From Escherichia coli (lineage in GTDB: Bacteria; Pseudomonadota; Gammaproteobacteria; Enterobacterales; Enterobacteriaceae): 64,000 nt of DNA. Below are positions 1,199 to 59,850 of the stretch, in pieces (positions within the stretch are counted from its first letter, which is position 1; the number at the start of each line of letters is the position of its first letter). A model generated the notes under the pieces. The model saw only the letters and a list, made by a program, of their open reading frames with translations. It made no database searches and was not told where the DNA came from. The stretch lies in the NCBI RefSeq assembly GCF_003991155.1, contig NZ_CP031294.1; one strand, written 5' to 3'. Both the position numbers and the translations under genes were made by a program.

Positions 1199-1249
1199 TA
1201 GTATCAATCCTTTAATTCATATATTGGGCGTAACAAACGCCCAATATAA

Positions 1250-1609
1250 TCAACCTTTCTTCATCAACTCTCGTTTAATTTCATCGGTACGCATCGTAAC
1301 GTCGGCAGCTGTGATCGCCTCGTTAAGCTTCACGATGTCCTCGATTTCCTGCGGTGACTTCTCTGCCAGATGGAAAATGGCTGCTCGAATCACGTCAGAA
1401 CGAGTGAACTTCTCGAAGCGAGGGATGAACTTCATCATCTCCAGCAGTTCGAAGTATTCGTCTTCCAGTGACATTGTGCGGCTTTTAATTTTCTCTTTGC
1501 CACGAGTCGGGCGTCCCTGTGGTCTGACTGGTTGGCGCAAAGGAGTTGTGTTCTTAGCCGGTGCATCAGGCTCTTTGCGCTTTGCTAGGTCACCCATTTT
1601 CATGGACAT
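1250..1609 (-). CDS. ParG-like small centromere-binding protein (basic N-terminus, C-terminal ribbon-helix-helix-like region)
   Basis: The 119-aa ORF sits directly downstream of the ParA-type ATPase and overlaps it by one codon (ATGA-type coupling). The N-terminal tail is Lys/Arg/Pro-rich and the C-terminus is a short helical domain. This layout is typical of ParF/ParG type Ib partition cassettes. Confidence 0.5.
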   Translation of the reverse strand: MSMKMGDLAKRKEPDAPAKNTTPLRQPVRPQGRPTRGKEKIKSRTMSLEDEYFELLEMMKFIPRFEKFTRSDVIRAAIFHLAEKSPQEIEDIVKLNEAITAADVTMRTDEIKRELMKKG

Positions 1610-2277
1610 TATTCTTCTTCCTCCAGACTCAACAGATAATCTACAAATTCTTCAAACTCGGCTTCCGCCTTTTTGTCGCGCTCGTTACCGGTCATTTCAA
1701 AGATAGAACGACCAGACTCTTCCGCATCATCATAGACGTTGCGGTTATATAGATTGACTGGCGCAGACTCGATGCCAAACGTCTCAACAATCTCTTTAGC
1801 CGCCAGAATGCGAGACACTTGTGATGGCAAAGCCGGGCACTGGTTCATGACCGCGCGGACCTTCACTTTATCGTTTACATTACGAACATTGTCGATAATA
1901 GGATCAATGTCACGTAAAGATTTCAAATCACGACGCTTAGGACGCAGCGGGATAATGATAACGTCAGCCATCAGCATCGCTTGTCGCTGAATTTCGGAGT
2001 CGAAGCCACCAGCATCTACCACTACAAACTCAGCTCTACCCTGAAGCGATTTTAGGTGCTTAATGATGTCATCCTGAACGTATGCAAAAGGAATCAGCTC
2101 AAGGTCTTCGTTCTGTCGACGGTCTTCACACCAGCTCGTTGTCGTGCGCTGAATATCTATATCGGTAATATAAACCTTCTTCTTCTTTTTGACTTTCAGG
2201 CAAACGGCAATTTGCTGGGCAACGGTGGATTTGCCAGGCCCGCCCTTTGTGCCGCCAACCACAAAGATCTTGGTCAT
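1609..2277 (-). CDS. parA: ParA/ParF-family partition ATPase (deviant Walker A)
   Basis: The N-terminus reads MTKIFVVGGTKGGPGKSTVAQQIA, a deviant Walker A of the KGGxGKS/T type. The size is 222 aa. An acidic C-terminus and a downstream small DNA-binding partner complete the pattern. Confidence 0.85.
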   Translation of the reverse strand: MTKIFVVGGTKGGPGKSTVAQQIAVCLKVKKKKKVYITDIDIQRTTTSWCEDRRQNEDLELIPFAYVQDDIIKHLKSLQGRAEFVVVDAGGFDSEIQRQAMLMADVIIIPLRPKRRDLKSLRDIDPIIDNVRNVNDKVKVRAVMNQCPALPSQVSRILAAKEIVETFGIESAPVNLYNRNVYDDAEESGRSIFEMTGNERDKKAEAEFEEFVDYLLSLEEEE

Positions 2278-2312
2278 TGGAGAGTTCCCTTTGCGTATAT
2301 AATTATCGTCTG

Positions 2313-2325
2313 AAACAACTTGTTT
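2313..2325. promoter_or_regulatory. Palindrome AAACAACTTGTTT followed by TTCTTAT, 36 bp upstream of the parA start. Same family as the island operators.
   Basis: Direct reading gives tataattatcgtctgAAACAACTTGTTTtcttatatg. Other copies are at 41013, 42249, 43152, 46268, 46318, 59090 and 59819. Confidence 0.45.
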
Positions 2326-2453
2326 TCTTATATGTGATATAGCCTAAATGCCTACGGCTGTGGTGTAAAGGTTAAATGGTAGGTGCTGCCTTAGAATTTT
2401 TAGGCGAGAATTAATGGCTGTTAACAAAAAAGGCGACCAAAGTCGCCTGATTT

Positions 2454-31830: not shown

Positions 31831-31966
31831 AGATCCCTCTAAAACACACAGAGCGCGTCCATGCGCTCTAAAACAACTTGTTTACTGCATCTGCTAACCA
31901 ACTTGTTTTCTGGGGTGTTTAATTAGGTCTGGCATGTCTTACGAAGCCTGCTTCCGTATATATTTA

Positions 31967-36843: not shown

Positions 36844-37122
36844 ATGAGTGAAAAGAAAACAACTTACTGTCAGGTAGCATTGTCTGATAAGGCCAATGAC
36901 AAACTTGGAAAGTTTCAAGTGAAACTAAAAGAAAAAAATATCAAAATGTCTAAGGCTGAAGTCATAAATACCATTCTGGAACAATTGACAATGGCCGACT
37001 TTGACAAGGTTATATCTTCTGTCGGGGCTTCCGCTAAGACTCGTGAGAAAATCATGCGTATCTATGAGAACTCTAATATGACAAAGGAAGATCTCAAAAC
37101 GCTATTAAGCAGATTAAAATAA
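36844..37122 (+). CDS. hypothetical small protein (92 aa)
   Basis: Start overlaps the helicase stop. Confidence 0.35.
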   Translation: MSEKKTTYCQVALSDKANDKLGKFQVKLKEKNIKMSKAEVINTILEQLTMADFDKVISSVGASAKTREKIMRIYENSNMTKEDLKTLLSRLK

Positions 37123-37615: not shown

Positions 37616-38142
37616 ACATGACAACCAAAGATATTACCTACGGTATCCAAGCTGAACTCTGGCCGCGAGATTACACTAACGTTGAAAAACTACTGATGTT
37701 CTGGCGCAGAGAACAAATTCCTGTAAGGGTCACTCTCGAAGATGGCCAGGCGTTTTGCATGTACGTTTATGGCCTCATGCCATCTCGTAACAAAGTTGAC
37801 CTTTGCCCAGCCCCTTTTGACAAAGAAAATCGTATAAGGCTCCCACTTGAACGCATTAGTACAATTGAATCAGGTGTGGTTGACAGTATCGCTCACGATT
37901 TCAAAGGTCGACTAACAGTTCACCCTGATTATGTCGATAATCGGCCATCACGCCGCGATTTTTTTGCAATTTGCAACCAAGCCTACAAAGCAAACAAATC
38001 TATAAGGGTGTACATGGCGGATGGCCGTGAAATTGAGGGGGTGTCAGCAGGCGCAGATGCTTGTCAGGTTACACTACGTGTCGAGAACGGTAGAAAAATA
38101 GTTGTTTTGTTCGATTGGGTTGAACGAATTTTGCCTTTTTGA
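37616..38142 (+). CDS. hypothetical protein (about 175 aa)
   Basis: The ORF begins MTTKDITYGIQAELWPRDY... The start is chosen at the first ATG after the lipoprotein stop. Confidence 0.4.
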
Positions 38143-39970: not shown

Positions 39971-40379
39971 TGTCTTTAACTCACTCCAACAACATAAAAA
40001 TAAGCGCCAAAATAACGCCATAAACGCGCTTTTATATCCTTACCAGTACATACCCATTACTTAACACATTAACGCGCTTAAAACGCGTTATATTGCGCTA
40101 TAGCGTATGGTTAATCATTGGCTTTTAGTCTTGCTATGTGATCCGCGTTTATTTGTCGGCGCGGATCGGCATTTTGTTTTGTTCCGTATCCGCTCGCGTA
40201 TTATGTGCGCGTGATTTTTCACATAATCACACCACTTAATCACGTATGTGATTATGCTACGAAAGAAATCTGGATGTCTCAGGCGACGAAAGTCATCATA
40301 ATTTTCCCCGCTCGCCTGTCCGACAACCGCTGGTTGGATTCCACCAGCTTCCCGATGTTTTTTTCTACATAAAGGCGAA

Positions 40380-40500
40380 TGCAGCCGTTTCCCGAAAAAA
40401 TCCTGGCCGTTTCCCGTCGGCTCATGAATACGTTCCTCGCCGTTTCTGAAAATTTCCCTGCGGCAGCTGGTGGCTATAGAGAAAGGGCCGTTTCTGGCCC
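40380..40500. repeat. iteron cluster 1: four copies of GCCGTTTC(C/T) followed by CGAAAA/TGAAAA-type sequence
   Basis: The copies are gcagccgtttcccgaaaaaatcc, tggccgtttcccgtcgg, ctcgccgtttctgaaaatttccctg and gggccgtttctggccc. Confidence 0.5.
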
Positions 40501-40509
40501 TCTTCTCAG

Positions 40510-40992
40510 TTACACGCCATCAAGGATGTGGATGCGGTTGCTTGCGTATACATTCAGCATAAAGTTAGCGCAAAACAGTTTCCATGTATCAACGCCAGCG
40601 GTATACGTAATGTTTTTGCATTTAATCGCATTGTTGGCGATCCGCATCCCCTGCGATACTGCTTCATCGTCGGAAAATTTGAACGACGATTGAGTTTTAA
40701 TCCAGACAGAAATCTGCGTAGCGAACTCAATCAGCTTGGACTGGCAGAATCGCCCGGAGCGCACCGGAAAGACGAACGTTCCGAATCCAGAATTTACCAC
40801 ATATGCTTTCTCAAATACCCGCGAGTAACGACGATTGCCAATGATGTCGCGTGCAATAATGCATTTTTCTTGTGCTGACAGTTCTACCGTCTCATTGTCG
40901 CGCCATGCACCAAGTACTCGTTTTTCAATGTCAGAGAACGTTACAGCGATATTGCCATGTGCGGGTGCGTTTACAGTAGCGATAAAATTCAT
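40510..40992 (-). CDS. hypothetical protein (160 aa)
   Basis: AAGGAAT RBS. The operator element lies 20 to 55 bp upstream. Confidence 0.5.
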   Translation of the reverse strand: MNFIATVNAPAHGNIAVTFSDIEKRVLGAWRDNETVELSAQEKCIIARDIIGNRRYSRVFEKAYVVNSGFGTFVFPVRSGRFCQSKLIEFATQISVWIKTQSSFKFSDDEAVSQGMRIANNAIKCKNITYTAGVDTWKLFCANFMLNVYASNRIHILDGV

Positions 40993-41010
40993 GATTAATT
41001 CCTTATCGTA

Positions 41011-41046
41011 AATAACAAATTGTTTTCTTGTTGGTGTTAATTATCG
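41011..41046. promoter_or_regulatory. island operator/promoter element ATAACAAATTGTTTTCTTGTTGGTGTTAATTATCG
   Basis: The core palindrome is AACAAATTGTT. On the coding strand it gives GATAAT or TAATTA (a -10-like hexamer), then about 12 nt, then the palindrome, then the RBS. Confidence 0.5.
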
Positions 41047-41165
41047 TTGTACGAATAAGGCGTCAAAGTGGAAAGTTGCGGTAGCCGGACGGGAACAGGT
41101 GGGTTTGTCGGTTGCCTGGAGGTAAGAGGTTGGTGTTTTTAGCCTGCGGGAAACAGGATGGTCAT

Positions 41166-41193
41166 TTAAGGCCACCAGCATTGGTGGCCTTAA
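41166..41193. terminator. hairpin TTAAGGCCACCAGCATTGGTGGCCTTAA (copy 1)
   Basis: Perfect 11-bp stem. A near-identical copy with an inverted loop is at 41637. Confidence 0.5.
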
Positions 41194-41196
41194 TCT

Positions 41197-41480
41197 TTAG
41201 TGGAGCAGACCGATGTCGATGGTATCCCCTGAATCATCCACACGGATCATCAGCATGGCAAAGGCGTTTAGTGGATAGCTTGCGTGCCATTCAGGGAAGC
41301 GGTCATCTCGCATGAAGTCGGCAATGTCGTAAACGCATCCCTCAAAGTGGAAGAATCGCGTGCTTACCTGCTCGTCATAATCCACATGATCCATTTCTTG
41401 CTGTTCTGTTTCCGGCAAGTCCAGCCATGATTCAAGAAATACATTTTGTGCTTTAGGGGTAATGGTGAAATCAGTCATGA
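41197..41480 (-). CDS. small acidic protein (about 94 aa)
   Basis: The start is reassigned to the ATG at 41480, preceded by GAGGAT. Reads MLMTDFTITPKAQNVFLESWLDLPETEQQEMDHVDYDEQ... Strongly acidic. Confidence 0.45.
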
Positions 41481-41507
41481 GCATATCCTCACTGCGTAAA
41501 CATGTTG

Positions 41508-41540
41508 TTTTCTTGTTGGTGTAATTATCGCAGTGTAGAT
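41508..41540. promoter_or_regulatory. operator element variant AAACATGTTGTTTTCTTGTTGGTGTAATTATCG
   Basis: Same downstream half (TTTTCTTGTTGGTGT-AATTATCG) as the copy at 41011. The palindromic core is AACATGTT. Confidence 0.45.
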
Positions 41541-41636
41541 AAGGCATAAAAGAAGTTAATACAGGCTGAATACACAAGAAAGGTTCTGGAAGTTGATAGC
41601 CAGGTTTCAAACTAACCTTCGGTTATTAAAAGTCAT

Positions 41637-41664
41637 TTAAGACCACCAATGCTGGTGGCCTTAA
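41637..41664. terminator. hairpin TTAAGACCACCAATGCTGGTGGCCTTAA (copy 2)
   Basis: See the copy at 41166. Both are preceded by GTCATTTAA. Confidence 0.5.
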
Positions 41665-41813
41665 TAATTATCGCCCGATTACGCTAAGGATCTTTTCCTC
41701 AACTGATTTGTTGTTGCGACTAAACTGCCTTGCGTATCTGATGACAGAAGAGGCGTTTTGCTTTCTGACCATCTCGGCTCTTTCCTTCAGGCGTTTCTTG
41801 AAATCGCCCATAT

Positions 41814-42188
41814 TTACCACCAGGCGCAGAAGGTCAGTCTGTTATTGTGAAAGTCGTGGTTCTTAATCAGATCTTCCACAAGCTCTTTCAACTCCCCCAC
41901 ATCATGCCAGTAACCTTCATCGTACTCCTGACTGCCGAAGAAAAAACCTTCCCGGGTAGGCAAGTACTCTTCGCAATTACTTTCGTTTATGTGCATCAAA
42001 TGAGCCTTCAGAAAACAAATGTCATTCATCGTTAATTCTAAAAGCTCACAATTTTCGACTTCACCTACGTTGCGCTCCATCCACCCAACGAGCGCATTGA
42101 ACTTACGGAAGTAAGCAACCTGCTTTCTGGATGCCTCGTTATTCAGATCGTTTTTAGGCTGTGTCTCGATATAGATATCAAGTCCCAT
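41814..42188 (-). CDS. hypothetical acidic protein (about 124 aa)
   Basis: The start is reassigned to MGLDIYIETQ..., preceded by AAGGAAACC. An operator-like AAACAAATTGTTAT lies at 42247. Confidence 0.45.
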   Translation of the reverse strand: MGLDIYIETQPKNDLNNEASRKQVAYFRKFNALVGWMERNVGEVENCELLELTMNDICFLKAHLMHINESNCEEYLPTREGFFFGSQEYDEGYWHDVGELKELVEDLIKNHDFHNNRLTFCAWW

Positions 42189-42305
42189 GATGGTTTCCTT
42201 ATTAAGTTGCTTCAGTGAAATCATTTTCACAAATCAGATAAGGCAGAAAACAAATTGTTATCGGGCATAAGAAAATGGCGCGGTTTACGCGCCATTCAAA
42301 GAGGA

Positions 42306-42698
42306 TTAAGCGAATACGCTTTCAGGGATTAAGGTGTCAGCAGGAATGCCGGAGGTAATGCGCAGGCCGTACTGACCAATCCAGGTAGTGTTGGTATTCA
42401 GGCTGGAGGCGAATACGGTGTTAACCATATTCATCATGGTTTCAAACACCTCTTCATCAACCTGGCGGAAGTAGTTCTCGATTTTCAGCAGCAGCGGGTC
42501 AGTTGCATCGAAAATAGACTGGTATTGAGTCGCGTACTCGCCGCCGGAGGCATCACCTTTACGCACGATCGTACTGGCCTGGACTTCGGCACCAGTTTCG
42601 GTGTTGTACGTAACAACGGTGATTTTTGCCACATTCTTACCTTCGGCGGTTTCAGAGGCATAGTAAACATCAACTGTCAGTTTTTCGCGTTTAACGGT
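42306..42698 (-). CDS. hypothetical protein (about 131 aa)
   Basis: The start is reassigned to MTVKREKL..., preceded by GGAGAGTG. The palindrome GTAAGTATGTACTTAC lies upstream at 42745. Confidence 0.45.
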   Translation of the reverse strand, partial: TVKREKLTVDVYYASETAEGKNVAKITVVTYNTETGAEVQASTIVRKGDASGGEYATQYQSIFDATDPLLLKIENYFRQVDEEVFETMMNMVNTVFASSLNTNTTWIGQYGLRITSGIPADTLIPESVFA

Positions 42699-42827
42699 CA
42701 TTTCACTCTCCGTAGTGTTTTGGTTATTTTTATATTCTATGATCGTAAGTATGTACTTACAATACAAAAAAGCCCCGTAAGGATGGCGGGGCTGTCGTAC
42801 TGTCGACTAATTACCACTTGCACATTA

Positions 42828-43139
42828 TCAGGCTATTGCCATCACTGATGCTCTCTGAATCTCTTGCTGGGCCACGCGGTTAACTTCCATCAAAGCCAGT
42901 TCGAGCTGATGTTCCGGCCACATTCTTTGAAATGCCACCCAGCCTTTTCCACGCTGGCGACGAACATTCATTACATAACGAGTAAAGGTGTATTTATCGA
43001 AAGACACCGCTGTTTCACGGAACAGACGAATAGAGGTTCCATTGGCAACGATGTCCAGCAAAGTTAATTGAGCAACCAGCGCAGGCTTCTCTTTTCTCTT
43101 CTGGTCTTTGTCCAGACCAAGAACCAATGATTTTTTCAT
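42828..43139 (-). CDS. hypothetical protein (about 103 aa)
   Basis: The operator AAACAACTTGTTT at 43152 lies just upstream of the MKKSLVLG start. Confidence 0.4.
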   Translation of the reverse strand: MKKSLVLGLDKDQKRKEKPALVAQLTLLDIVANGTSIRLFRETAVSFDKYTFTRYVMNVRRQRGKGWVAFQRMWPEHQLELALMEVNRVAQQEIQRASVMAIA

Positions 43140-43292
43140 CACAACTCCGTAAACAACTTGTTTTCTCAATGGCGTAAATAATACCAGTAAGAAAACGGCT
43201 ACAAAGCATATTGATCAGGTGCATGAGCGATATGCAGGTTCTTCCCTGCGGCTATAGAGAAATTAAGCCAGCATTGCTGGCTTTGGTTAGGT

Positions 43293-43622
43293 TTACTCGA
43301 ATACTTCAAGAAACTCCTGAACGTCCCAATGCTGGACAAGGTGAAGATAGACCTTAGAAATAACATCATTCTCGCTATCGCATGTGAAGTAGTACTTCTG
43401 GCTGCGGTTGTATGTGTCCACACAAAATTCGCTCATATCCATAAAGTCAGCATCTTCACCCATGTCGCAAATCATCAAAGCAGGTGCGTCATCACGAGTC
43501 ATCAGCTCAAGCACCCACCGCGAATTGATCAGAGTGGAAGACCAACCTTCTAACTCATAAAACTGATCAAACTCTTTTTGAGTTAATTTCTTGATTTGGT
43601 TGATGTCGATATTTGCAAACAT
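43293..43622 (-). CDS. small acidic protein (about 110 aa)
   Basis: The product begins MFANIDINQIKKL... and has high Asp/Glu content. The operator lies at 43633. Confidence 0.45.
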   Translation of the reverse strand: MFANIDINQIKKLTQKEFDQFYELEGWSSTLINSRWVLELMTRDDAPALMICDMGEDADFMDMSEFCVDTYNRSQKYYFTCDSENDVISKVYLHLVQHWDVQEFLEVFE

Positions 43623-43699
43623 AAAGCAATCCTTAAACAACATGTTTTCTTGATGGTGTTATTATCGCAATAACGCACAGGTGAAAAAGGATTTTATTC

Positions 43700-45170
43700 C
43701 GGTGAATGTGGTTTTGGCAGTGAGTTTTCAGGTTCAGTACCGAGTACACTTTTTACATTATTCTGATTTAGTGGCCGAAGGTGGCTGGTGGGCAGAATAA
43801 TCCTCTCCCCGAAAACCTACTGAAATCGATTGTGACCCGTTGGCTGTCTGGCACAATTACGCTGTAACTGGGCATTCAGAGGGAATCCAGCGGTAAGTAA
43901 GTTCGCCTGCACGTGAGCGCCTCTCTTCTTCCCGCACATTACAGGTGGGTAGCCGCAACTCTCCCTCTCGCTATACCGGTACGCCGCCGTTCCTGAACCG
44001 GCATCGAGCCTTCTCCCGAAATCCACACAGGCAACTCGACCGTTTCCCTGAAAACCTCCAGCCGTTCCCCGAAGGCAACCCAGCCGTTTCTGTAGCGGGA
44101 TGCAACCTTTTCCCTGTATGGACCGAAGGCTGACCGTAGGGGTGTTACGGGGGATAAAATCAGGAGTTGAATAAATACGAAAAAGGAGGCGACACCCCTC
44201 CTTCTCTCCCCACTTATACATACCTGGCTTCTTCGCTATACATGTTGTGTTTTATTCGTGTTTTATCTGTCTCAACCTCTCTATGGACGTTAATACTCAC
44301 TCCTTCCAGAACGTTCTATACGGCGACTAATTCTGTTGGTGAATTGGGTGTGTTGTTCTCTCTGTCGGTGTATGTGGTTTCGTTCGTTTTGCGGTGGTTC
44401 TTCTATGGGGTGTTCTCGTCGTTTTGGTGATTGTTCTTCTCCGTGTATGGAGTAATGGCAGGTGGGCGATTCCTTTCGTTATTGTGTTTGAGTTGTTTGT
44501 CTGGAGTGCGTGAAGGGCTTTTGTAGTTATTCGTGTGTTGGGTAATGGCGTTTCCCGTGATTGTTCTGTTTCGTGTCTTTTGGGATTGAGAGAAACCTTG
44601 CGGTTACAGGCTTCGTTGGGGTTTCAGTGATTCTGGTGTTTCTTCGCTGTTTGGGTAATGGCGTGTCGTGGGTATCGCGCGTATGGAAGTTTCGAATTGC
44701 CTGTGAAAGTTAGGTTGGTTGTCCGGTAGCCTGAGAAGAAGAGGTGGGTCTTTTCGGTAGCCTGCCATAAAGAGGTTGGTTGTTTTTGGTAATGGCATAT
44801 GTGTTATTTAGTTGTTTTGTTATGCCTGAAAATAAGTTGTTTATATGGTTATGTAACGCAACGGGAACGATTTTGAGCGTGTGTTTTTGTTGGTAGTGTG
44901 TTGGGTCGTCTGTGGTGAAAATTGGACGCTGTGGCGCTGTCTGCTGCGTAGAATTACGGGTATAAGCAGTGATGTGTGAAAACGTCAATTTTTTAGACCA
45001 AATCGGGTGAAAGCGTTGATGTTTCGTTGATCTGTTATTCAGTTGTTTTCTTATTGGTATAAACAACTGTAACCTATTGATATTTAAGGATGTGATTCCA
45101 GGCATGGAAGGGGAGTAGTGGCGATCAACGGATTCTTATAGAAAAGAATCAAATTGTGACCGCCATTATC
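43700..45170. repeat. 1.4-kb non-coding region: iteron cluster 2 (about 43,960-44,130, the same CCGTTTCCC-GAAAA family as 40380-40500) plus a strongly G/T-skewed segment (about 44,230-44,800) with GGTAATGGC repeated four times and CGGTAGCCTG repeated twice
   Basis: No ORF with a credible start or RBS. The repeats were read directly (ctctccccgaaaacc, ccttctcccgaaatcc, cgaccgtttccctgaaaacc, cagccgttccccgaagg, cagccgtttctgtagcg, aaccttttccctgtatgg). The plus strand between 44,340 and 44,800 has very few A. Confidence 0.6.
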
Positions 45171-45176
45171 AATGTT

Positions 45177-45911
45177 TTACTTAGTTTTGTTTAGCAGAGA
45201 GAGAATTTCATCACTAATTTCACTCGCCTGTTTGATAGCCAATGCAGTTACCTCTTCTATGGTTGGTGACTGTTGATGCTCATATTTGGTTTCGGTTATG
45301 ACAATGTGTTCTTCACCAGAATTTGCGCATAGTGCCGCATTGACGATAAGGTTTGAGTAAGAATTTAGCAGAGCACTGTTGATGAACGCTTTCACGGTAT
45401 TACTGTCTGCACCAAATACATCTTTTCTGACCGCTTCAGCCTCACAGCGAACCCCTGCAGCAACATCGTGAAGAACATGTATGGCCTTGGAGCTTGTTTG
45501 TTCACAGTACTCAATCATTATTGTCGAATTGTTCTGTTCAACAAACGATCTGATGCCTGACGATTTACCCATAGCATCGAAGGCAGCGTGACCCGCACTA
45601 GTAGAGATATCTTCATAGAGTTCTTCATCGCTATCTTTTTCTTCAGGTGTCGAGGTGTCTTCATCGTCGTAATAGATATTGCCTTTAATCAGTGTCTTGG
45701 ACACTTGATATAAACAATAAGAAACGAGATTTAAGCATTGGATTTTAGCTGTATTGTCCTTTGTCGCCTCGCTATTCAGTTCTTTCGCTTCTTCAGTAAG
45801 GCTGTTGATAAGACTTTGTATTTTTTCCAACGCGTTAGGTGCACACTCCGCGTTGTCCATAAAGAATTTATAACCAGTCCCAGGGATTTCTAAACTTTTC
45901 AACTTTTTCAT
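45177..45911 (-). CDS. hypothetical acidic protein (244 aa)
   Basis: Good ORF. The Asp/Glu-rich central segment reads DDEDTSTPEEKDSDEELYEDIS. Confidence 0.5.
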   Translation of the reverse strand: MKKLKSLEIPGTGYKFFMDNAECAPNALEKIQSLINSLTEEAKELNSEATKDNTAKIQCLNLVSYCLYQVSKTLIKGNIYYDDEDTSTPEEKDSDEELYEDISTSAGHAAFDAMGKSSGIRSFVEQNNSTIMIEYCEQTSSKAIHVLHDVAAGVRCEAEAVRKDVFGADSNTVKAFINSALLNSYSNLIVNAALCANSGEEHIVITETKYEHQQSPTIEEVTALAIKQASEISDEILSLLNKTK

Positions 45912-45956
45912 TTCTTTGATAATCCTAAAAACAAACTACCAATGCTTTAATATCTG

Positions 45957-46256
45957 TTACCAGTTCCAGCACTCAAGCCCTTCAACGACCGGCGCACCAC
46001 AATCAAAATGTACAGAGTCAAAGCCTACATCAAGTACTTTCTGAATGTTAGCAATCGCGCCTTCGGATATACCATATCGACGCAAGTCCTCTTTCCAGAC
46101 ATCATCCTGTAACCCAGCGTGGACAATACAACCGCCGTCAATTTGTGAAACCCAATCCAGCTCATTGCTTGCGATCATGAATCGGCGAGCATCTTCCTCT
46201 GATGTATGAGATGAGCTGATCAATGCCACCTGGTAGGCTTGGGTAATGTTCAACAT
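45957..46256 (-). CDS. small acidic protein (99 aa)
   Basis: Two operator palindromes lie immediately upstream. Confidence 0.45.
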   Translation of the reverse strand: MLNITQAYQVALISSSHTSEEDARRFMIASNELDWVSQIDGGCIVHAGLQDDVWKEDLRRYGISEGAIANIQKVLDVGFDSVHFDCGAPVVEGLECWNW

Positions 46257-46265
46257 TTCAACAAC

Positions 46266-46336
46266 TCCGAAACAATTTGTTTTCTTATGTGGCTTATTAT
46301 CTCAATCAACAAAAGGTAGAAAACAAATTGTTTTAG
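46266..46336. promoter_or_regulatory. tandem operators AAACAATTTGTTT (46268) and AAACAAATTGTTT (46318)
   Basis: Read directly. The first is followed by TCTTATGTGGCTTATTATCTC, as in the other copies. Confidence 0.5.
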
Positions 46337-46417
46337 GGTTTGTTAAAGTCAGAAGGGGTTGTGTCTATATGAAAATGCCCAGCGTGTTGCCGGGCATTGC
46401 GAACAGAGGTTGTTTAA

Positions 46418-48451
46418 TTACTTAACCTGGTGGCCTGGTTTAGCACCAGCATCCGGGCTTAACAGGAAGATATCTTTCCCGCCGGGGCCAGCAGCCATCA
46501 CCATGCCTTCGGAGATACCGAAGCGCATTTTACGCGGAGCCAGGTTAGCCACCATAATGGTGTGACGACCAATCAGTGCCTGTGGGTCTGGATAAGCAGA
46601 ACGGATGCCTGAGAAGACATTACGCTTTTCACCACCGAGATCCAGTGTCAGACGCAGCAGTTTGTCAGAACCTTCGACAAACTCCGCGTTTTCAATCAGC
46701 GCCACACGCAGGTCAACTTTGGCGAAGTCGTCAAAGGTGATGGTTTCCTGAATCGGGTCGTCAGCCAGTGGGCCAGTTACCGGTGCAGCTGTGGCTTTCA
46801 CTTCTTCTTTGGATGCTTCCACCAGTGCTTCCACCTGTTTCATATCGATACGGTTATACAATGCCTTGAACGGATTCACTTTATGGCCCAGCAGCGGTTG
46901 CTGGATACCATCCCAGGTCAGTTCTGTATTCAGGAATGCTTCTGCACGTTCAGTCAGTTTCGGCAGTACCGGTTTCAAGTACGTCATCAGCACGCGGAAC
47001 AGGTTAATGCCCATAGAGCAAATCGCCTGCAGATCGGCATCGCGTCCTTCCTGCTTCGCCACCACCCACGGAGCCTGTTCATCGACATATCGGTTAGCCA
47101 GGTCAGCCAATGCCATGATTTCACGGATAGCTTTACCAAATTCGCGGCTTTCCCATGCTTCGCCAATCACTTCAGCGGCATCAGTAAAGGTTTTGTACAG
47201 TTGCGGGTCAGCCAGTTCGCTTGCCAGCACGCCGTCAAAACGCTTGTTGATAAAGCCTGCATTACGGGAGGCCAGGTTAACCACTTTGTTCACGATATCG
47301 GCATTCACGCGCTGAACGAAATCCTCCAGGTTGAGATCGATATCATCAATGCGCGAAGAGAGTTTCGCAGTGTAGTAGTAACGCAGGCTGTCGGCGTCAA
47401 AATGATTCAGCCAGGTGCTGGCTTTAATAAAGGTGCCGCGAGACTTGGACATCTTCGCGCCGTTCACCGTCACATAGCCGTGAACAAACAGGTTGGTCGG
47501 CTTGCGGAAGTTGCTGCCTTCCAGCATGGCAGGCCAGAACAGGCTGTGGAAGTAAACAATATCTTTACCGATGAAGTGGTACAGCTCGGCTGTGGAGTCT
47601 TTCTTCCAGTATTCATCGAAGCTGGTGGTATCGCCGCGCTTGTCGCACAGATTCTTGAAGGAACCCATGTAGCCAATCGGCGCGTCCAGCCAGACGTAGA
47701 AATATTTGCCCGGCGCGTTCGGAATTTCAAAACCGAAGTAAGGCGCATCGCGGGAGATATCCCACTGTTGCAGGCCGGATTCAAACCACTCCTGCATTTT
47801 GTTCGCCACCTGCTCCTGCAACGCACCGCTGCGGGTCCATGCCTGCAACATTTCGCTGAAAGAGGGCAGATCAAAGAAGAAGTGTTCGGAATCACGCATT
47901 ACCGGGGTAGCGCCAGAAACCACCGATTTCGGCTCGATCAATTCAGTCGGGCTATATGTTGCGCCGCAGACTTCACAGTTATCGCCGTATTGATCTGGCG
48001 CTTTACATTTCGGGCAGGTGCCTTTCACAAAACGATCCGGCAGGAACATGCCTTTTTCCGGGTCGTACAACTGAGAGATAGTGCGGTTTTTAATAAAACC
48101 GTTCTCTTTCAGGCGAGTATAGATAAGCTCAGACAGCTGGCGGTTCTCTTCGCTGTGCGTCGAGTGATAGTTGTCATAGCTGATGTTAAAGCCTGCGAAA
48201 TCAGTCTGGTGTTCCTGACTCATTTCGCCAATCATCTGCTCCGGTGTGATACCAAGCTGCTGTGCTTTCAGCATGATCGGCGTACCGTGGGCATCGTCGG
48301 CACAGATGAAATTAACCTCGTGGCCGCGCATTCGCTGGTAACGAACCCAGACATCAGCCTGGATGTGCTCCAGCATATGGCCGAGGTGGATTGAGCCGTT
48401 AGCGTACGGCAGCGCGCACGTCACCAGAATTTTCTTCGCGACTTGGGTCAT
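46418..48451 (-). CDS. metG: methionyl-tRNA synthetase
   Basis: Translation from [35 protein letters not shown]... carries the class I HIGH motif and KMSKS (…GAKMSKSRG…). The full-length product is 677 aa with a C-terminal tRNA-binding domain. A terminator hairpin follows the stop. Confidence 0.95.
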
Positions 48452-48608
48452 AGTAGGCATTACTTCTTTGTAGTGAAAAGGGGCTTGATAGTAACAAAAT
48501 GGCCTTATGTCTGCCATGTGATAACAGCATTTCTCATAAATGATTAAATGTCGTAGCTGGAGTACACTACAAGGCGACAATTGCGCAAATTAAAATAAAG
48601 GAGACGGG

Positions 48609-49709
48609 ATGAGCGAGTCCAAATCGCCGGATGCCCTGAGAGCAATGGTAGCCGGTACGCTGGCTAATTTTCAGCACCCAACCCTGAAACACAACCTGAC
48701 TACGCTTAAAGCGTTACACCATGTTGCGTTGATGGATGACACACTGCATGTCGAACTAATCATGCCTTTCGTGTGGAATAAGCCTTTTGAAGACCTGAAA
48801 GAGCAATGTAGTGGTGATCTGCTCCGTATCACTGGCGCAAAGGCTATTGACTGGAAGCTGTCGTACAACATTGCCACGCTTAAGCGCGTCAAAAACCAAC
48901 CAGGCATTAATGGCGTTAAGAACATTATCGCCGTCAGCTCAGGCAAGGGCGGCGTGGGTAAATCCTCCACGGCGGTAAACCTGGCACTGGCGTTGGCTGC
49001 TGAAGGTGCGAAAGTTGGTATTTTGGATGCCGATATCTATGGTCCATCAATTCCAACCATGCTGGGCGCGGAAAACCAACGTCCAACCTCACCTGACGGT
49101 ACTCACATGGCACCTATCATGTCTCATGGCCTGGCAACCAACTCTATTGGTTATCTGGTCACCGACGACAATGCAATGGTGTGGCGTGGACCGATGGCCA
49201 GCAAGGCGCTGATGCAGATGTTGCAGGAAACTCTATGGCCTGATCTGGACTATCTCGTTCTCGATATGCCGCCGGGCACTGGTGATATTCAGTTGACGCT
49301 GGCGCAGAACATTCCTGTAACTGGTGCGGTTGTGGTAACTACGCCGCAAGACATCGCGCTGATCGATGCGAAGAAAGGCATTGTGATGTTCGAAAAAGTC
49401 GAAGTGCCGGTACTGGGTATCGTCGAAAACATGAGTGTGCATATTTGCAGTAACTGCGGTCATCACGAGCCAATTTTTGGCACCGGTGGCGCACAGAAAC
49501 TGGCCGAGAAATACAACACGCAGTTGTTAGGCCAAATGCCACTTCATATCTCTCTTCGTGAAGATCTGGATAACGGAACACCAACCGTTATTAGTCGTCC
49601 AGATAGCGAATTTACGGCTATTTATCGTGACCTCGCAGATCGCGTTGCCGCCCAAATGTATTGGCAAGGTGAAGTAATACCTGGCGAAATCGCATTCCGC
49701 GCAGTGTGA
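48609..49709 (+). CDS. mrp: Mrp/ApbC Fe-S cluster carrier ATPase
   Basis: MSESKSPDALRAM... The P-loop reads VSSGKGGVGKSSTAVNLA. The CxxC pair reads CSNCGHHEP. Divergent from metG with a 157-bp intergenic region. A terminator hairpin follows. Confidence 0.93.
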   Translation: MSESKSPDALRAMVAGTLANFQHPTLKHNLTTLKALHHVALMDDTLHVELIMPFVWNKPFEDLKEQCSGDLLRITGAKAIDWKLSYNIATLKRVKNQPGINGVKNIIAVSSGKGGVGKSSTAVNLALALAAEGAKVGILDADIYGPSIPTMLGAENQRPTSPDGTHMAPIMSHGLATNSIGYLVTDDNAMVWRGPMASKALMQMLQETLWPDLDYLVLDMPPGTGDIQLTLAQNIPVTGAVVVTTPQDIALIDAKKGIVMFEKVEVPVLGIVENMSVHICSNCGHHEPIFGTGGAQKLAEKYNTQLLGQMPLHISLREDLDNGTPTVISRPDSEFTAIYRDLADRVAAQMYWQGEVIPGEIAFRAV

Positions 49710-49745
49710 TAAAAGGCGGTGCATTGCACCGCCTAATCAGTTCTC

Positions 49746-50135
49746 CTACATCACGGGACAATCATCAAACTCGCCACTTCTTGCGTCGTTGATAATGTGA
49801 GTGATCACACCAAACACGGCATTGCTGCCCGTGCATCCATCGTCATCCTTTGGCAATGCTTCCTTCTTACCGGTTCTTAAATCCTCCAGATGCTGACGTG
49901 GGTACTTCCGGTATCTTTTTACGCGATATTCCCCATCCAGAGCGCATACAAGCAGAGAACCATCAACCGGGGTAAGTGAGGAATCGACCACCAGCAATGC
50001 ACCCTGTAATATTCCCTCACGATGATGACTATCAGCTGCCCTCATGAAGTAGGTCGCTGAAGGATGTCTAATTATCTGCTGATCAAGAGAAATACGGCTC
50101 TCAGCATAATCCGCCGCAGGAGAAGGGAAGCCCAT
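49746..50135 (-). CDS. UmuD/LexA-like S24 peptidase-domain protein (orphan, no umuC partner in the window)
   Basis: The 129-aa product has a C-terminal S24-like domain ...DGSLLVCALDGEYRVKRYRKYP.... A LexA box lies 19 bp upstream. Confidence 0.65.
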   Translation of the reverse strand: MGFPSPAADYAESRISLDQQIIRHPSATYFMRAADSHHREGILQGALLVVDSSLTPVDGSLLVCALDGEYRVKRYRKYPRQHLEDLRTGKKEALPKDDDGCTGSNAVFGVITHIINDARSGEFDDCPVM

Positions 50136-50153
50136 AGCGTTTTCACCTCAGAG

Positions 50154-50173
50154 TACTGTTTATCCATACAGTA
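50154..50173. promoter_or_regulatory. LexA (SOS) box TACTGTTTATCCATACAGTA
   Basis: Perfect CTGT-N8-ACAG with TA flanks, read directly at 50154-50173. Confidence 0.8.
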
Positions 50174-50233
50174 TACATTAAAGATGCTTGAAGTGTGCAA
50201 TAGCGCGATGCTTTGCGCTCGTCTGGTGGCGCG

Positions 50234-50485
50234 TTATTTTTTGGCTATATCTTCTTTCTGATATACCGGATCGTTTCCTTTTGGCAGCAGGAGGCTTAAC
50301 TGCCGGTAGTGCCGTAGCCGTTCCATGAAATAGGTGCGCAGGTTCTCAGGTTGCTCACGGGCTACCTGTTCCGCTATGACGGGTATGTTCAATCGCTCTT
50401 TGTAGGCAACCCCCCTGGCAGCCAGGTCAACGTTAACTTTATTCCTTTCTTCCTGGCTTTTGGCTGCTATGTTCCAGTTGCTCAT
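50234..50485 (-). CDS. hypothetical protein (83 aa)
   Basis: ORF adjacent to the next small ORF. No motif. Confidence 0.4.
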
Positions 50486-50487
50486 GT

Positions 50488-50676
50488 TTAAGGCTCACAT
50501 TTCCAGATGGTATTCTGAACACCCGTACCAGGCGCAAGATGAGGGTTAGCGTTCGCGCTATGCAGATATACAGCTTTAGACTTTCCGTATTGCTGACAGG
50601 CTTTATCTGCGTTTTTTGGCAGGCTATCCAAGCCAATACCAGCCATCGAACTGGATGCTAACCTTTTCACCGTCAT
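50488..50676 (-). CDS. hypothetical small protein (about 62 aa)
   Basis: Weak. Start chosen at MTVKRL. Confidence 0.25.
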
Positions 50677-59069: not shown

Positions 59070-59087
59070 GTGTTTTTCCTAATTCTT

Positions 59088-59125
59088 AAACAAGTTGTTT
59101 TCTTATTGGCTTTATTGTGATGTGG
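59088..59125. promoter_or_regulatory. operator element copy (AAACAAGTTGTTTTCTTATTGGCTTTATTGTGATG)
   Basis: Same family as the copies at 41011, 43150, 43633 and 46268. Confidence 0.5.
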
Positions 59126-59792: not shown

Positions 59793-59816
59793 GTGTTTTC
59801 CTTTTGTTATTTGTCA

Positions 59817-59850
59817 AAACAAGTTGTTTTATAGTTTCATAAATTGCTTA
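59817..59850. promoter_or_regulatory. operator element copy (AAACAAGTTGTTTTATAGTTTCATAAATTGC)
   Basis: The palindrome AAACAAGTTGTTT lies 25 bp upstream of the ATG at 59792. Confidence 0.45.

What the first reader, a model, noticed from the sequence alone, without database searches (positions are those of the whole stretch)
40990..46340. One operator/promoter cassette (palindrome AAACAA-N-TTGTTT plus TTCTT-N-TGG-N-TTATTATC) is reused in front of about ten separate small genes, on both sides of metG-mrp and in front of parA
Copies were read directly at 2313, 41013, 41511 (variant), 42249, 43152, 43633 (variant), 45049/45071 (split form CAGTTGTTT-N12-AAACAACTG), 46268, 46318, 59090 and 59819. 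On the coding strand each copy lies between a -10-like GATAAT/TAATTA hexamer and the RBS, so it sits in the 5' leader or operator position. That is the signature of one DNA-binding regulator, or one RNA element, switching a dispersed set of monocistronic genes. The set includes the partition ATPase and a family of small acidic proteins. The regulator itself is not identifiable in the window.
Basis: seen in the sequence. Interest (0 to 1): 0.78.

Follow-up and report, generated by a model that had tools for sequence, protein, structure and literature searches.

The report
Shared operator palindrome in a phage-plasmid
A 17-19 bp palindrome sits at one of two fixed positions around about twenty promoters of an SSU5-type phage-plasmid, which most likely lets one plasmid-encoded DNA-binding repressor, still unidentified, keep a scattered set of early genes silent while the element lives as a plasmid.

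Summary
The window is part of a ~110 kb E. coli SSU5/pHCM2-type phage-plasmid (100% identical to pEC17CM6_2 over the stretch compared). The element AAGAAAACA-NNN-TGTTTAA occurs at 12 strong loci in the window and ~17 in the plasmid, about 16 times chance. All strong copies are intergenic.

It is kept at orthologous promoters in Salmonella phage SSU5 and in a divergent Klebsiella relative, and is essentially confined to this family. It occupies two fixed registers relative to a -10 hexamer: centre about +13/+14, or about -38. Neighbouring copies are 25 or 51 bp apart. Copies at -38 are not in the mRNA, and the leaders form no stable hairpin, so this is a DNA operator, not an RNA element.

In published Cyrano lysogen RNA-seq, genes behind the element sit at background, except the parA operon.

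The binding protein is not proven. My leading candidate (~35%) is the 117-aa protein encoded just after parA (window 1250-1603). Rivals are a FljA-family protein, a 92-aa protein (36844-37122), the CI-like HTH repressor and a host factor.

It is a new member of a known kind: multi-operator regulons such as P1 C1, RK2 KorB and pSM19035 omega.

The parts
2311..2329 (-). Proximal-type copy AAGAAAACAAGTTGTTTCA in the parA promoter/leader, 35 nt before the parA ATG at 2277.
   Evidence: Conserved in SSU5 and in Klebsiella CP027615.
31869..31912 (-). Two tandem copies, centres 25 bp apart, in the leader of the terS-like/terminase late operon.
   Evidence: Same pair in SSU5 and Y. pestis pMT1.
31841..31869 (-). 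Hairpin AGAGCGC-ATGGAC-GCGCTCT followed by GTGTGTTTT, between the tandem copies and the terS-like start codon. It looks like a leader terminator or attenuator.
   Evidence: Read directly. Conserved in SSU5 and pMT1. Function inferred.
41011..41029 (-). Proximal copy. GATAAT lies 13 nt upstream on the coding strand. It heads the 160-aa gene 40510-40992.
41496..41514 (-). Proximal copy (central triplet ACA) heading the 93-aa gene 41197-41478.
42246..42264 (-). Distal-type copy. TTGTTT is followed after 19 nt by the -10-like GAAAAT. It sits upstream of gene 41814-42188, and no proximal palindrome is left at this promoter.
43149..43167 (-). Proximal copy heading the 103-aa gene 42828-43139. The SD GGAG starts 3 nt after the palindrome (2 nt between them).
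43633..43651 (-). Proximal copy (central triplet TGT) heading the 109-aa gene 43293-43622.
44826..44844 (+). Weak copy (16.6 bits) inside the 1.5 kb ORF-poor region.
45043..45066 (.).
   Evidence: The same N12 arrangement occurs once in SSU5, six times in Klebsiella CP027615, and exactly once in the Moellerella relative, in its parA promoter.
46268..46286 (-). Proximal copy, centre about +14 of the promoter heading the 99-aa DUF5983 gene 45957-46256.
46296..46301 (-). The -10-like hexamer GATAAT of that promoter. The start site is inferred at about 46289.
   Evidence: Read directly. Position class confirmed statistically. The start site is not mapped.
46317..46335 (+). Distal copy of the same promoter, centre about -38, 51 bp from the proximal copy. 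It lies downstream of the metG terminator hairpin.
59086..59104 (-). Proximal copy heading the 189-aa gene 58500-59069.
59815..59833 (-). Proximal copy heading the TerB/TciA-like gene 59367-59792.
1609..2277 (-). Small Walker-type ParA partition ATPase (222 aa, no N-terminal DNA-binding domain).
   Evidence: Pfam MipZ/AAA_31/CbiA. NCBIfam ParA_partition E=1.8e-33.
1250..1603 (-). 117-aa protein encoded 5 nt after parA. It is the leading candidate for the protein that binds the palindrome (putative centromere-binding autorepressor).
   Evidence: Synteny. IKSRTMSxEDE, RSDVIRAAI and PQGRPTRGK are nearly invariant across the family. Expressed in the lysogen as CYRAN_29, 89 against background 9.8. 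Fold not confirmed. Only a weak sub-threshold match to the aCcr1 family.
36844..37122 (+). 92-aa protein, rival candidate regulator.
   Evidence: Its Cyrano orthologue CYRAN_117 reads 114 in the lysogen. No Pfam family. The N-terminal strand-like segment varies between lineages that keep the same motif.
37618..38142 (+). FljA-family protein (Pfam Flag1_repress), rival candidate acting on RNA.
   Evidence: E=1.5e-84. Core gene of the family, including in Klebsiella. Absent from the Moellerella relative, which also lacks the motif.

Best explanation
The element is a DNA operator. It is a 17-19 bp palindrome, core AAACA-N3-TGTTT, extended on one side to AGAAAACA. It sits in one of two fixed registers around sigma-70-type -10 hexamers that have poor -35 elements. 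One register is just downstream of the inferred start site (centre about +13/+14). The other overlaps the -35 region (centre about -38). Some promoters carry both copies, 51 bp apart, which is five helical turns and therefore the same face of the DNA.

A dimeric or tetrameric protein encoded by the phage-plasmid binds these sites and blocks RNA polymerase. This keeps about ten transcription units in the window (about 15 in the whole plasmid) off while the element is maintained as a plasmid. The units are a run of small single-gene units of unknown function, the DnaB-like helicase, nrdB, the CobT-like gene, the terminase operon and parA itself. After entry into a naive cell no repressor is present, so these promoters would fire at once.

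Shown: the sites, their geometry, their conservation, their family specificity, and the silence of the genes in a lysogen. Inferred: the start sites, the binding and the repression.

The binder is not identified. My leading candidate (about 35%) is the 117-aa protein encoded directly after the small ParA ATPase (window 1250-1603). It would then act like the centromere-binding autorepressors of type Ib partition systems, which also serve as global regulators. The dispersed palindromes could in that case also serve as centromere sites.
For: Enrichment: 27 strand-matches against 3.5 expected, and 34 against 2.1.

Location: all strong copies are intergenic and oriented with the downstream gene.

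Geometry: 54 sites in three genomes were classified. In 38 'proximal' sites a -10-like hexamer starts 25 nt upstream of the palindrome centre. In 16 'distal' sites it starts 26 nt downstream. The AGAAAAC arm always faces the promoter core. The only neighbour spacings are 25 and 51 bp. Several Klebsiella promoters have only the distal copy, which is not transcribed with the gene.

Conservation: the palindrome is the best-conserved intergenic block upstream of dnaB and parA in E. coli, Salmonella and Klebsiella elements.

Specificity: 108 of 118 IMG/VR loci holding the exact 19-mer are SSU5-like.

Expression: in LF82/Cyrano RNA-seq, genes headed by the element read 5.7-25.5 against a background of 9.8. 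The parA operon reads 50-89, as expected for autoregulation (PMC9928086 S1 table).

For the parA-linked protein as binder:
- It follows a 222-aa ParA that has no DNA-binding domain. In type Ib systems the downstream protein is the autorepressor at the parA promoter (established knowledge of ParG, omega and pB171 ParR).
- The only conserved repeat in the parA promoter is this palindrome.
- Its strand-like and helix segments are nearly invariant while overall identity falls to 48%. This parallels the unchanged motif.
- In the Moellerella relative, which has lost the motif everywhere else, the single TTGTTT-N12-AAACAA pair of the whole 108 kb plasmid lies in the parA promoter, against about 0.1 expected anywhere.

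Precedent for dispersed single palindromes as centromere sites in a phage-plasmid: N15 IR1-4 (PMC7205306).
Against: No binding or start-site data exist.

The promoters fail a simple consensus scan because the -35 is poor. The -10 assignment therefore rests on position statistics only.

The ribbon-helix-helix fold of the 117-aa protein is my inference from its sequence pattern. The AlphaFold monomer gave only helices after a disordered N-terminus (pLDDT 69). Foldseek, a profile search of PDB sequences and hhalign against ParG gave nothing. The only hint is a sub-threshold NCBIfam match to the aCcr1 family, E=2e-4.

The parA promoter has a single palindrome, not the repeat array usual for type Ib centromeres.

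The Moellerella protein keeps the same putative DNA-reading residues although the motif is gone from its other promoters. Under this model the regulon would have to have expanded or collapsed.

Other proteins expressed in the lysogen (the 92-aa protein, the HTH repressor) are not excluded.
Confidence: 0.7

Rival explanations
1. The element works at the RNA level. The proximal copies form the 5' end of the mRNAs, directly before the Shine-Dalgarno sequence. They would be bound by the FljA-family protein encoded at 37618-38142. This would be a translational repressor like Salmonella FljA on the fliC leader, co-opted as a global post-transcriptional regulator of the phage-plasmid.
For: The protein matches Pfam Flag1_repress at E=1.5e-84, with a weak Hfq-like stretch. 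FljA acts post-transcriptionally on fliC mRNA (PMC2652032).

The gene is core in the family. It is found in 834 plasmid records, including 345 from Klebsiella, a genus I know to be non-flagellate, and Y. pestis pMT1. Its target is therefore probably not host flagellin.

It is present in all four motif-bearing lineages and in every one of the 80 viral loci whose sequence reaches its position. It is absent from the one relative that lacks the motif.

In many proximal copies the SD starts 1-3 nt after the palindrome.

The Salmonella fliC leader contains CAAGTTGT about 20 nt before its SD.
Against: Sixteen of 54 sites are upstream of the -10 at a fixed distance, and some promoters have only that copy. 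Those copies are not in the mRNA.

Leaders do not fold better than shuffles (z from -0.6 to +1.1), and the palindrome hairpin appears in only 1 of 8 minimum-energy folds.

The protein is highly diversified, 33-100% identical across 79 clusters at 90% identity, while the motif does not change.

The E. coli fliC leader, which a close FljA relative also silences, lacks the motif.

The gene reads only 18 in the lysogen, where the targets are silent.
Confidence: 0.1
2. It is the same DNA operator, but the binder is the 92-aa protein at 36844-37122, which would be the maintenance repressor of these promoters.
For: Its Cyrano orthologue CYRAN_117 is among the most highly expressed phage-plasmid genes in the lysogen (114 against background 9.8). 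That is 2.5 times the gene upstream of it.

It is small, with a strand-helix-helix-like pattern near the N-terminus (my reading).

It is present in all motif-bearing lineages.
Against: It has no family assignment.

The strand-like segment differs between E. coli (TYCQVAL) and Klebsiella CP027615 (VSCHLKL), with 35% identity overall, although both elements use the identical palindrome.

No copy of the motif lies in front of its own operon. The helicase/ParB intergenic region carries the other repeat, TAAGTA-NN-TACTTA, instead.
Confidence: 0.12
3. It is the same DNA operator, but the binder is the CI-like HTH repressor. This is a 128-aa protein next to the integrase, at plasmid coordinates 16963-17349, outside the window. 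The arrangement would resemble P1 C1 with its many operators.
For: It is annotated as a transcriptional regulator, with a weak HTH_19 match. It is expressed in the lysogen as CYRAN_45, 96. The module is conserved as far as Moellerella. The element is SOS-inducible.
Against: SSU5 lacks the gene yet keeps about 25 sites at orthologous promoters.

The protein diverges to 56% in typical Klebsiella elements, 48% in CP027615 and 66% in pHCM2/pMT1, with no change in the motif.

Its own promoter region carries TAAG..CTTA-type elements, not this palindrome, in E. coli, Klebsiella and Moellerella.

Moellerella has the protein but not the motif.
Confidence: 0.08
4. A host transcription factor or nucleoid protein of Enterobacteriaceae binds the palindrome, and the phage-plasmid has recruited it.
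For: The motif is unchanged while every plasmid-encoded candidate diverges to 33-66%. The one relative lacking the motif lives in a different family, Morganellaceae.
Against: I could not match the motif to any E. coli regulator site I know. KdgR, Cra, PhoP, Zur, IHF and LexA boxes differ in spacing or orientation. This comparison is from memory and was not tested.

The exact 19-mer is essentially confined to SSU5-like elements among IMG/VR viral contigs. Other enterobacterial phages could be expected to exploit a host factor as well.
Confidence: 0.07
5. There is no dedicated regulator. The similarity reflects repeated duplication of one promoter-leader cassette, and the A/U-rich leader serves as start region or translation enhancer.
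For: The small-gene promoters share about 50 bp beyond the palindrome (GCCTTaT-N9-GATAAT-aACACCAaC-AAGAAAACAA). Promoters with only a distal copy still keep the half-element AAGAAAACAA after the -10.
Against: Promoters with otherwise unrelated flanks (dnaB, parA, nrdB, CobT-like, terS) share only the palindrome.

Both arms are conserved at 1.2-1.8 bits per position.

The palindrome recurs in a second register upstream of the -10, in inverted orientation, with strict 25/51 bp spacing. A leader function cannot explain that.
Confidence: 0.05

Closest known systems
P1 C1 repressor and its dispersed operators (phage-plasmid P1)
   Same: A plasmid prophage in which one short operator sequence recurs at many promoters scattered over about 100 kb, keeping lytic and accessory functions off during plasmid maintenance (my own knowledge of P1).
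   Different: P1 operators are asymmetric 17-mers bound by C1, and no C1 homologue was seen here. This operator is a palindrome in two strict registers. The CI-like HTH protein of this family does not track the motif.
RK2/IncP KorB (ParB) and pSM19035 omega: partition proteins that double as global repressors
   Same: A centromere-binding protein encoded after parA represses its own operon and several other operons through copies of one site dispersed over the replicon. The sites lie close to or overlap the promoters (my own knowledge).
   Different: KorB is a large ParB-type HTH protein with 13-bp OB sites. Omega binds arrays of 7-bp heptads. Here there are single 17-19 bp palindromes, a 117-aa protein of unconfirmed fold, and no demonstration that this protein binds them.
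N15 SopB and the four IR centromere sites
   Same: A phage-plasmid whose partition protein recognises single palindromes scattered in the genome rather than one tandem array (PMC7205306). An influence on phage gene expression has been reported (my recollection of Ravin et al., not checked here).
   Different: N15 uses a type Ia SopAB system and has 4 sites of a GC-rich 16-bp palindrome. Here there is a type Ib-like ParA, about 17 AT-rich sites per plasmid (about 20 in SSU5 and the Klebsiella relative), and a strict promoter register.
TP228 ParF-ParG-parH (type Ib partition with a ribbon-helix-helix autorepressor)
   Same: A small Walker ParA followed by a small protein with a disordered basic N-terminus. 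That protein represses the par promoter (PMC3130281 abstract, plus my own knowledge).
   Different: parH is a ~100 bp array of ACTC tetramer boxes. No sequence or profile similarity to ParG was detected (probability 0.1).
Salmonella FljA acting on the fliC 5' leader
   Same: A protein of the same Pfam family is encoded in the window, and proximal copies lie directly before the SD, as a translational operator would.
   Different: It is only 34% identical to true FljA. A third of the copies are not transcribed with the gene. No hairpin forms. The hosts include non-flagellate genera.

Membership tests
Multi-operator repressor regulon of a plasmid or phage-plasmid (P1 C1, RK2 Kor, omega type) | One short consensus site recurs at many separate promoters of the replicon, far above chance. 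| tested here: met
   27 against 3.5. 34 against 2.1. About 17 loci in the plasmid, about 20 in SSU5 and about 20 in Klebsiella CP027615.
Multi-operator repressor regulon of a plasmid or phage-plasmid (P1 C1, RK2 Kor, omega type) | The sites overlap core promoter elements or the start site, so a bound protein excludes RNA polymerase. | tested here: inconclusive
   The offset to -10-like hexamers is fixed, with centres about +13/+14 or about -38. However, start sites are not mapped and the promoters fail a consensus scan.
Multi-operator repressor regulon of a plasmid or phage-plasmid (P1 C1, RK2 Kor, omega type) | The target genes are silent when the element is maintained as a plasmid. | tested here: met
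   In Cyrano lysogen RNA-seq, class-A-headed genes read 5.7-25.5 against background 9.8. The parA operon reads 50-89. For genes outside locus L006, presence of the site in Cyrano is inferred from 98% identity.
Multi-operator repressor regulon of a plasmid or phage-plasmid (P1 C1, RK2 Kor, omega type) | An identified repressor binds the sites. | not testable with these tools
   Only candidates can be named.
Type Ib partition locus with autorepressing centromere-binding protein | A small Walker ParA (about 200-220 aa, no N-terminal HTH) followed directly by a small gene. | tested here: met
   The ParA is 222 aa. The 117-aa ORF starts 5 nt after it.
Type Ib partition locus with autorepressing centromere-binding protein | The downstream protein has a ribbon-helix-helix (or other DNA-binding) fold. 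| tested here: inconclusive
   Its pattern and nearly invariant segments are compatible with that fold. The AF2 monomer shows helices 46-57 and 68-80 after a disordered N-terminus. Foldseek, a PDB profile search and hhalign against ParG were negative. There is a weak aCcr1-family match, E=2e-4, below cut-off.
Type Ib partition locus with autorepressing centromere-binding protein | An array of binding repeats next to the par operon forms the centromere/operator. | tested here: not met
   There is only one palindrome in the parA promoter and no other repeat array within 1100-4000. The copies are dispersed instead.
REP/MITE-like mobile intergenic repeat | Intergenic copies without a fixed relation to promoters. 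A stable hairpin. Spread through the host chromosome or unrelated replicons. | tested here: not met
   The register to the -10 and the gene orientation are strict. There is no stable fold. 108 of 118 IMG/VR loci with the exact 19-mer are SSU5-like. The host chromosome itself was not scanned.
FljA-type translational operator | The target lies in the 5' untranslated leader of the regulated mRNA. | tested here: not met
   This holds for the 38 proximal sites but not for the 16 distal sites. Some promoters have only the distal copy.
FljA-type translational operator | The sequence is related to the known FljA target, the fliC leader. | tested here: inconclusive
   CAAGTTGT is shared with the Salmonella fliC leader. 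It is absent from the E. coli fliC leader. The published FljA binding site could not be read.
Known structured RNA families (Rfam) | A match to a curated covariance model. | tested here: not met
   There was no meaningful hit in 40000-46500 at E<=1.

The most novel reading that the evidence does not exclude
The FljA-family protein has been taken over by the phage-plasmid as a global post-transcriptional repressor. Until now this family is known only as a silencer of one flagellin mRNA. On this reading it recognises the AAGAAAACAAnUUGUUUAA leader of about twenty mRNAs, possibly on top of a DNA-level repressor that uses the same sequence. It is conserved even in non-flagellate hosts such as Klebsiella and Y. 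pestis.
Probability: 0.1. Interest if true: 0.8.

Novelty: new member of a known kind. Interest (0 to 1): 0.5.

Why it matters
SSU5/pHCM2-type phage-plasmids are common in E. coli, Salmonella Typhi, Klebsiella and Enterobacter. They contributed half of Y. pestis pMT1, and they carry resistance genes. Yet their regulatory circuitry is essentially undescribed.

This element marks one co-regulated promoter class from sequence alone. That class includes parA, replication and nucleotide-metabolism genes, the terminase leader and a block of small, individually terminated genes of unknown function. These small genes are plausible 'first-minutes' establishment or anti-defence genes.

The element also gives a direct handle (EMSA, DAP-seq, titration) for finding the repressor. 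If the binder is the partition protein, plasmid segregation and control of phage early genes would be coupled in a phage-plasmid, as in RK2 KorB or pSM19035 omega.

Tried and rejected
- **RNA element.** An Rfam E-value scan of 40000-46500 found nothing. Eight leaders fold no better than shuffles.
- **SOS box.** The motif is not CTGT-N8-ACAG. The S24 protein in the window is a HumD/UmuD-type subunit without a DNA-binding domain.
- **CI-like HTH repressor.** It is absent from SSU5, diverges without any motif change, and its own promoter carries the other repeat.
- **The two ParB_N-domain proteins (33851-35199).** I considered them as KorB-like regulators. They are present at 44-69% identity in the motif-less Moellerella element, with nearly the same C-terminal strand-like segment, so they do not discriminate.
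- **Small proteins of the array itself as autoregulators.** All fall in PHROG families of unknown function, with no Pfam DNA-binding domain.
- **Fold confirmation of the 117-aa protein.** AF2 with Foldseek, a PDB profile search and hhalign against ParG gave no support.
- **A diverged homologue in a non-phage plasmid (hit H67).** It was an IS-truncated fragment.
- **pMT1 as a natural test.** It lacks the parA-linked protein, but the small-gene array is deleted and the lineage is too young. The two terS sites are intact.
- **Literature.** The FljA mechanism papers and a 2026 preprint on an SSU5-like phage-plasmid that mentions promoters 49 times are not held in the library. No paper in the held library describes this motif.
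- **Host regulator sites.** The comparison was from memory only.

Full report
**What the window is.** Positions 40000-47000 are 100% identical to plasmid pEC17CM6_2 (NZ_CP190020.1, 110,667 bp) and 98% identical to other ~105-120 kb E. coli plasmids. 164 complete E. coli genomes carry at least 80% of this stretch. The annotation shows a siphovirus structural module, RepA, a ParA-type ATPase, DNA-metabolism genes, and plasmid-borne copies of metG and apbC. Phage Cyrano (pLF82) is 98% identical and Salmonella phage SSU5 about 70% identical over the region. The window is therefore part of an SSU5/pHCM2-type phage-plasmid. It is not a prophage flanking chromosomal metG-mrp.

**The observation.** On the coding (minus) strand the element reads AAGAAAACA-NNN-TGTTTAA. 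Information content is 1.0-1.8 bits at 15 of its 16 positions; only the central base is free. The core with at most one mismatch gives 27 strand-matches in the window, against 3.5 expected and a maximum of 8. A 19-nt matrix gives 34 strand-hits above 12 bits in the whole plasmid, against 2.1 in shuffles.

Outside the window, the same plasmid has copies in front of a DUF7238 gene, the CobT-like gene, the DnaB-like helicase and nrdB. All strong copies are intergenic. The only sub-threshold hits inside genes are at 38091 and 47550.

In the window the element heads about ten units: parA, the terS-like operon, six small genes between 40.5 and 46.3 kb, and two genes near 59 kb. Several of the small genes between 41 and 43.3 kb are followed by terminator-like hairpins. 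Their products belong to PHROG families of unknown function.

**Anatomy.** I oriented 54 sites from the E. coli element, SSU5 and a divergent Klebsiella element (CP027615.1) by gene direction. They fall into two classes.
- **38 'proximal' sites.** The consensus is ..tAaTtAcaC.aAtAAGAAAACAA.TTGTTTAa. A -10-like hexamer (GATAAT, TAATTA and similar) starts 25 nt upstream of the palindrome centre.
- **16 'distal' sites.** The consensus is CCTtAAACAA.TTGTTTTCTgCCTt...GATAAT. The -10 starts 26 nt downstream of the centre.

If transcription starts about 7 nt after the hexamer, the centres lie at about +13/+14 and about -38. The longer arm, AGAAAAC, faces the promoter core in both classes. Neighbouring copies are only ever 25 or 51 bp apart, for example 46276/46327 in the window.

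The promoters have poor -35 hexamers and do not pass a plain consensus scan. The -10 assignment therefore rests on position statistics, not on mapped starts.

**DNA or RNA?** Distal copies are upstream of the -10, and at 46317 the copy lies downstream of the metG terminator hairpin. In the Klebsiella element several small-gene promoters have only the distal copy. These copies cannot act in the mRNA of the gene they precede. Eight leaders fold no better than dinucleotide shuffles, and the palindrome hairpin is the minimum-energy structure in only one of them. Rfam has nothing. A symmetric site on one helical face, either over the -35 or just past the start, is what a repressor operator looks like.

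**Conservation and specificity.** SSU5 keeps the element at orthologous promoters: terS (tandem pair), parA, dnaB, the CobT-like gene, nrdB and the small-gene block. So does the Klebsiella element, whose proteins are only 33-91% identical. Upstream of dnaB and parA the palindrome is the best-conserved intergenic block apart from the ribosome-binding site. Sites also turn over: the Klebsiella nrdB and CobT-like promoters lack it. Among IMG/VR viral contigs, 108 of 118 loci holding the exact 19-mer are SSU5-like, and the other ten have single, presumably chance, copies. A Moellerella relative (NZ_CP093251.1) with the same gene order has no such sites at its promoters.

**Expression.** The LF82 study (PMC9928086) gives per-gene RNA-seq values for Cyrano in an overnight LB culture, where the median 'background' is 9.8. 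Genes headed by the element read as follows.

| Gene (Cyrano) | Reading |
|---|---|
| terS | 7.1 |
| helicase | 21 |
| CobT-like | 7.8 |
| DUF7238 | 5.7 |
| nrdB | 12.9 |
| TciA-like | 7.0 |
| CYRAN_87 | 7.1 |
| CYRAN_101 | 7.5 |
| CYRAN_105 | 12.8 |
| CYRAN_106 | 12.2 |
| CYRAN_110 | 6.7 |
| CYRAN_111 | 25.5 |

The exception is the parA operon: ParA reads 50, and the protein after it reads 89. Seven sites were verified directly in the Cyrano locus I fetched; the others are inferred from 98% identity. The regulon is thus off in the lysogen, and the par operon behaves as if autoregulated.

**Who binds?** I compared the candidates on three criteria: presence in lineages with and without the motif, divergence relative to the unchanged motif, and expression in the lysogen.

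(a) *The CI-like 128-aa HTH protein* lies next to the integrase, outside the window. It is expressed in the lysogen (96). But it is missing from SSU5, and it diverges to 48-66% identity in pHCM2, pMT1 and Klebsiella elements. Its own promoter region carries TAAG..CTTA-type elements instead of this palindrome.

(b) *The 92-aa protein at 36844-37122* is the most strongly expressed gene of its operon in the lysogen (114). But its N-terminal strand-like segment differs between lineages that use the same palindrome.

(c) *The FljA-family protein at 37618-38142* matches Pfam Flag1_repress at E=1.5e-84. It is a core gene of the family even in Klebsiella and Y. pestis. It is absent from the motif-less Moellerella element. 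However, it is very diversified (33-100% identity), it reads only 18 in the lysogen, and as an RNA-binding protein it cannot explain the distal copies.

(d) *The 117-aa protein at 1250-1603* starts 5 nt after a 222-aa Walker ParA that has no DNA-binding domain. In type Ib partition systems the protein in this position binds the par promoter and represses it. This is established knowledge for ParG, omega and pB171 ParR.
- The only conserved repeat in the parA promoter is this palindrome.
- The segments IKSRTMSxEDE, RSDVIRAAI and PQGRPTRGK are nearly invariant while overall identity falls to 48%. That matches a motif that never changes.
- In Moellerella, the single TTGTTT-N12-AAACAA pair of the whole 108 kb plasmid lies in the parA promoter, against about 0.1 expected anywhere.

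Against candidate (d), I could not confirm a ribbon-helix-helix fold. The AlphaFold monomer (pLDDT 69) shows a disordered N-terminus and then helices. Foldseek, a PDB profile search and hhalign against ParG (1P94, sequence verified) are all negative. Only a sub-threshold NCBIfam match to the aCcr1 family exists; I know aCcr1 as a small ribbon-helix-helix regulator.

I rate (d) at about 35%, (b) at about 12%, (a) at about 8%, a host factor at about 7%, another unrecognised plasmid protein at about 15%, and the RNA/FljA reading at about 10%.

**Mechanism proposed.** Shown: a family-specific palindrome in two fixed registers at about 15-20 promoters, conserved across genera, with the target genes silent in a lysogen. 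Inferred: a plasmid-encoded dimer or tetramer binds the sites, occludes the -35 and/or blocks initiation or escape at about +13/+14, and binds cooperatively where two copies lie 51 bp apart. On entry into a naive cell the promoters are free and fire until the repressor accumulates. If the binder is the partition protein, the same sites could act as dispersed centromere sites, as the four IR sites do in phage-plasmid N15.

**Comparison and novelty.** The closest known systems are P1 C1 with its many operators, RK2 KorB and pSM19035 omega (partition proteins doubling as global repressors), N15 SopB/IR1-4, and TP228 ParFG. The present case works like these, but membership of any one family is not established. 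There is no C1 or KorB homologue, no support for homology to ParG, and no repeat array at parA. I found no description of this motif in the held literature. One possibly relevant 2026 preprint could not be read. I therefore classify it as a new member of a known kind, of moderate interest. It defines a regulon in a clinically widespread but poorly understood phage-plasmid family, and it makes the search for the regulator straightforward.

Noticed in passing
Window about 3653, 5293, 9505, 16424, 22929, 28420, 35218, 42746, 60700, 62920 (plasmid coordinate minus 32000; the last two are shifted by about 19 nt): There is a second, equally abundant repeat, TAAGTA-NN-TACTTAcTTATC. It occurs at about 20 sites per genome, against 0.1-0.2 expected. 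It lies in front of structural, lysis and DNA-metabolism operons and in the ParB/helicase divergent region. Unlike the finding, it is kept in all four lineages, including Moellerella. Related TAAG..CTTA elements lie in front of the CI-like HTH repressor gene. It may be a second promoter or operator class.
   Followed up: partly
window 37618-38142 (+): A FljA-family protein ('repressor of phase-1 flagellin', Pfam E=1.5e-84) is a core gene of these phage-plasmids. It is 79-83% identical in typical Klebsiella elements and Y. pestis pMT1, hosts without functional flagella, but only 34% identical to true FljA. Alleles are swapped between otherwise near-identical elements. Its real target is unknown.
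   Followed up: partly
window 43660-45170: This is a 1.5 kb stretch without convincing genes. It is G+T-rich on the + strand and has degenerate repeats ending in GGTAATGGC every ~90-110 bp. Copies of the palindrome flank it or lie inside it (43633, 44826, 45043). Equivalent ORF-poor stretches exist in SSU5 and the Klebsiella element. It could be an origin, a packaging or partition site, or a long non-coding transcript. Tandem Repeats Finder and Rfam found nothing.
   Followed up: partly
window 31841-31869 (-): The terminase-operon leader carries a GC-rich hairpin followed by GTGTGTTTT, directly after the tandem operator pair and overlapping the ribosome-binding site. It is conserved in SSU5 and pMT1. 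This suggests attenuation or antitermination control of the late operon.
   Followed up: no
window 34519-35199 (-) and 33851-34519 (-): Two adjacent ParB_N-domain proteins sit upstream of the packaging genes. The first ends in a strand-helix-helix-like segment (TMRFKVTFDASDRV...GEALVWLVDYY) that is conserved across the family. That would make it a ParB-N/RHH-like fusion of unknown role.
   Followed up: partly
window 46418-50500: The phage-plasmid carries full-length copies of the host housekeeping genes metG and apbC (mrp), a HumD/UmuD-type S24 protein, a DNA polymerase III theta homologue, and a complete type I restriction-modification system. SSU5 and the Klebsiella and Moellerella relatives lack metG/apbC. 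In the Cyrano lysogen apbC reads 92 and the S24 gene 148, against a background of 9.8.
   Followed up: no
Moellerella plasmid NZ_CP093251.1 (loci L013/L014), e.g. 564, 13428, 13528, 26046, 42171, 51923, 75597, 75663, 83775: The relative that lacks the palindrome has its own nine-copy promoter-like repeat, ccgc-N-GCCTAGCTCCCATAGTATTTATATAAT, in intergenic regions.
   Followed up: no
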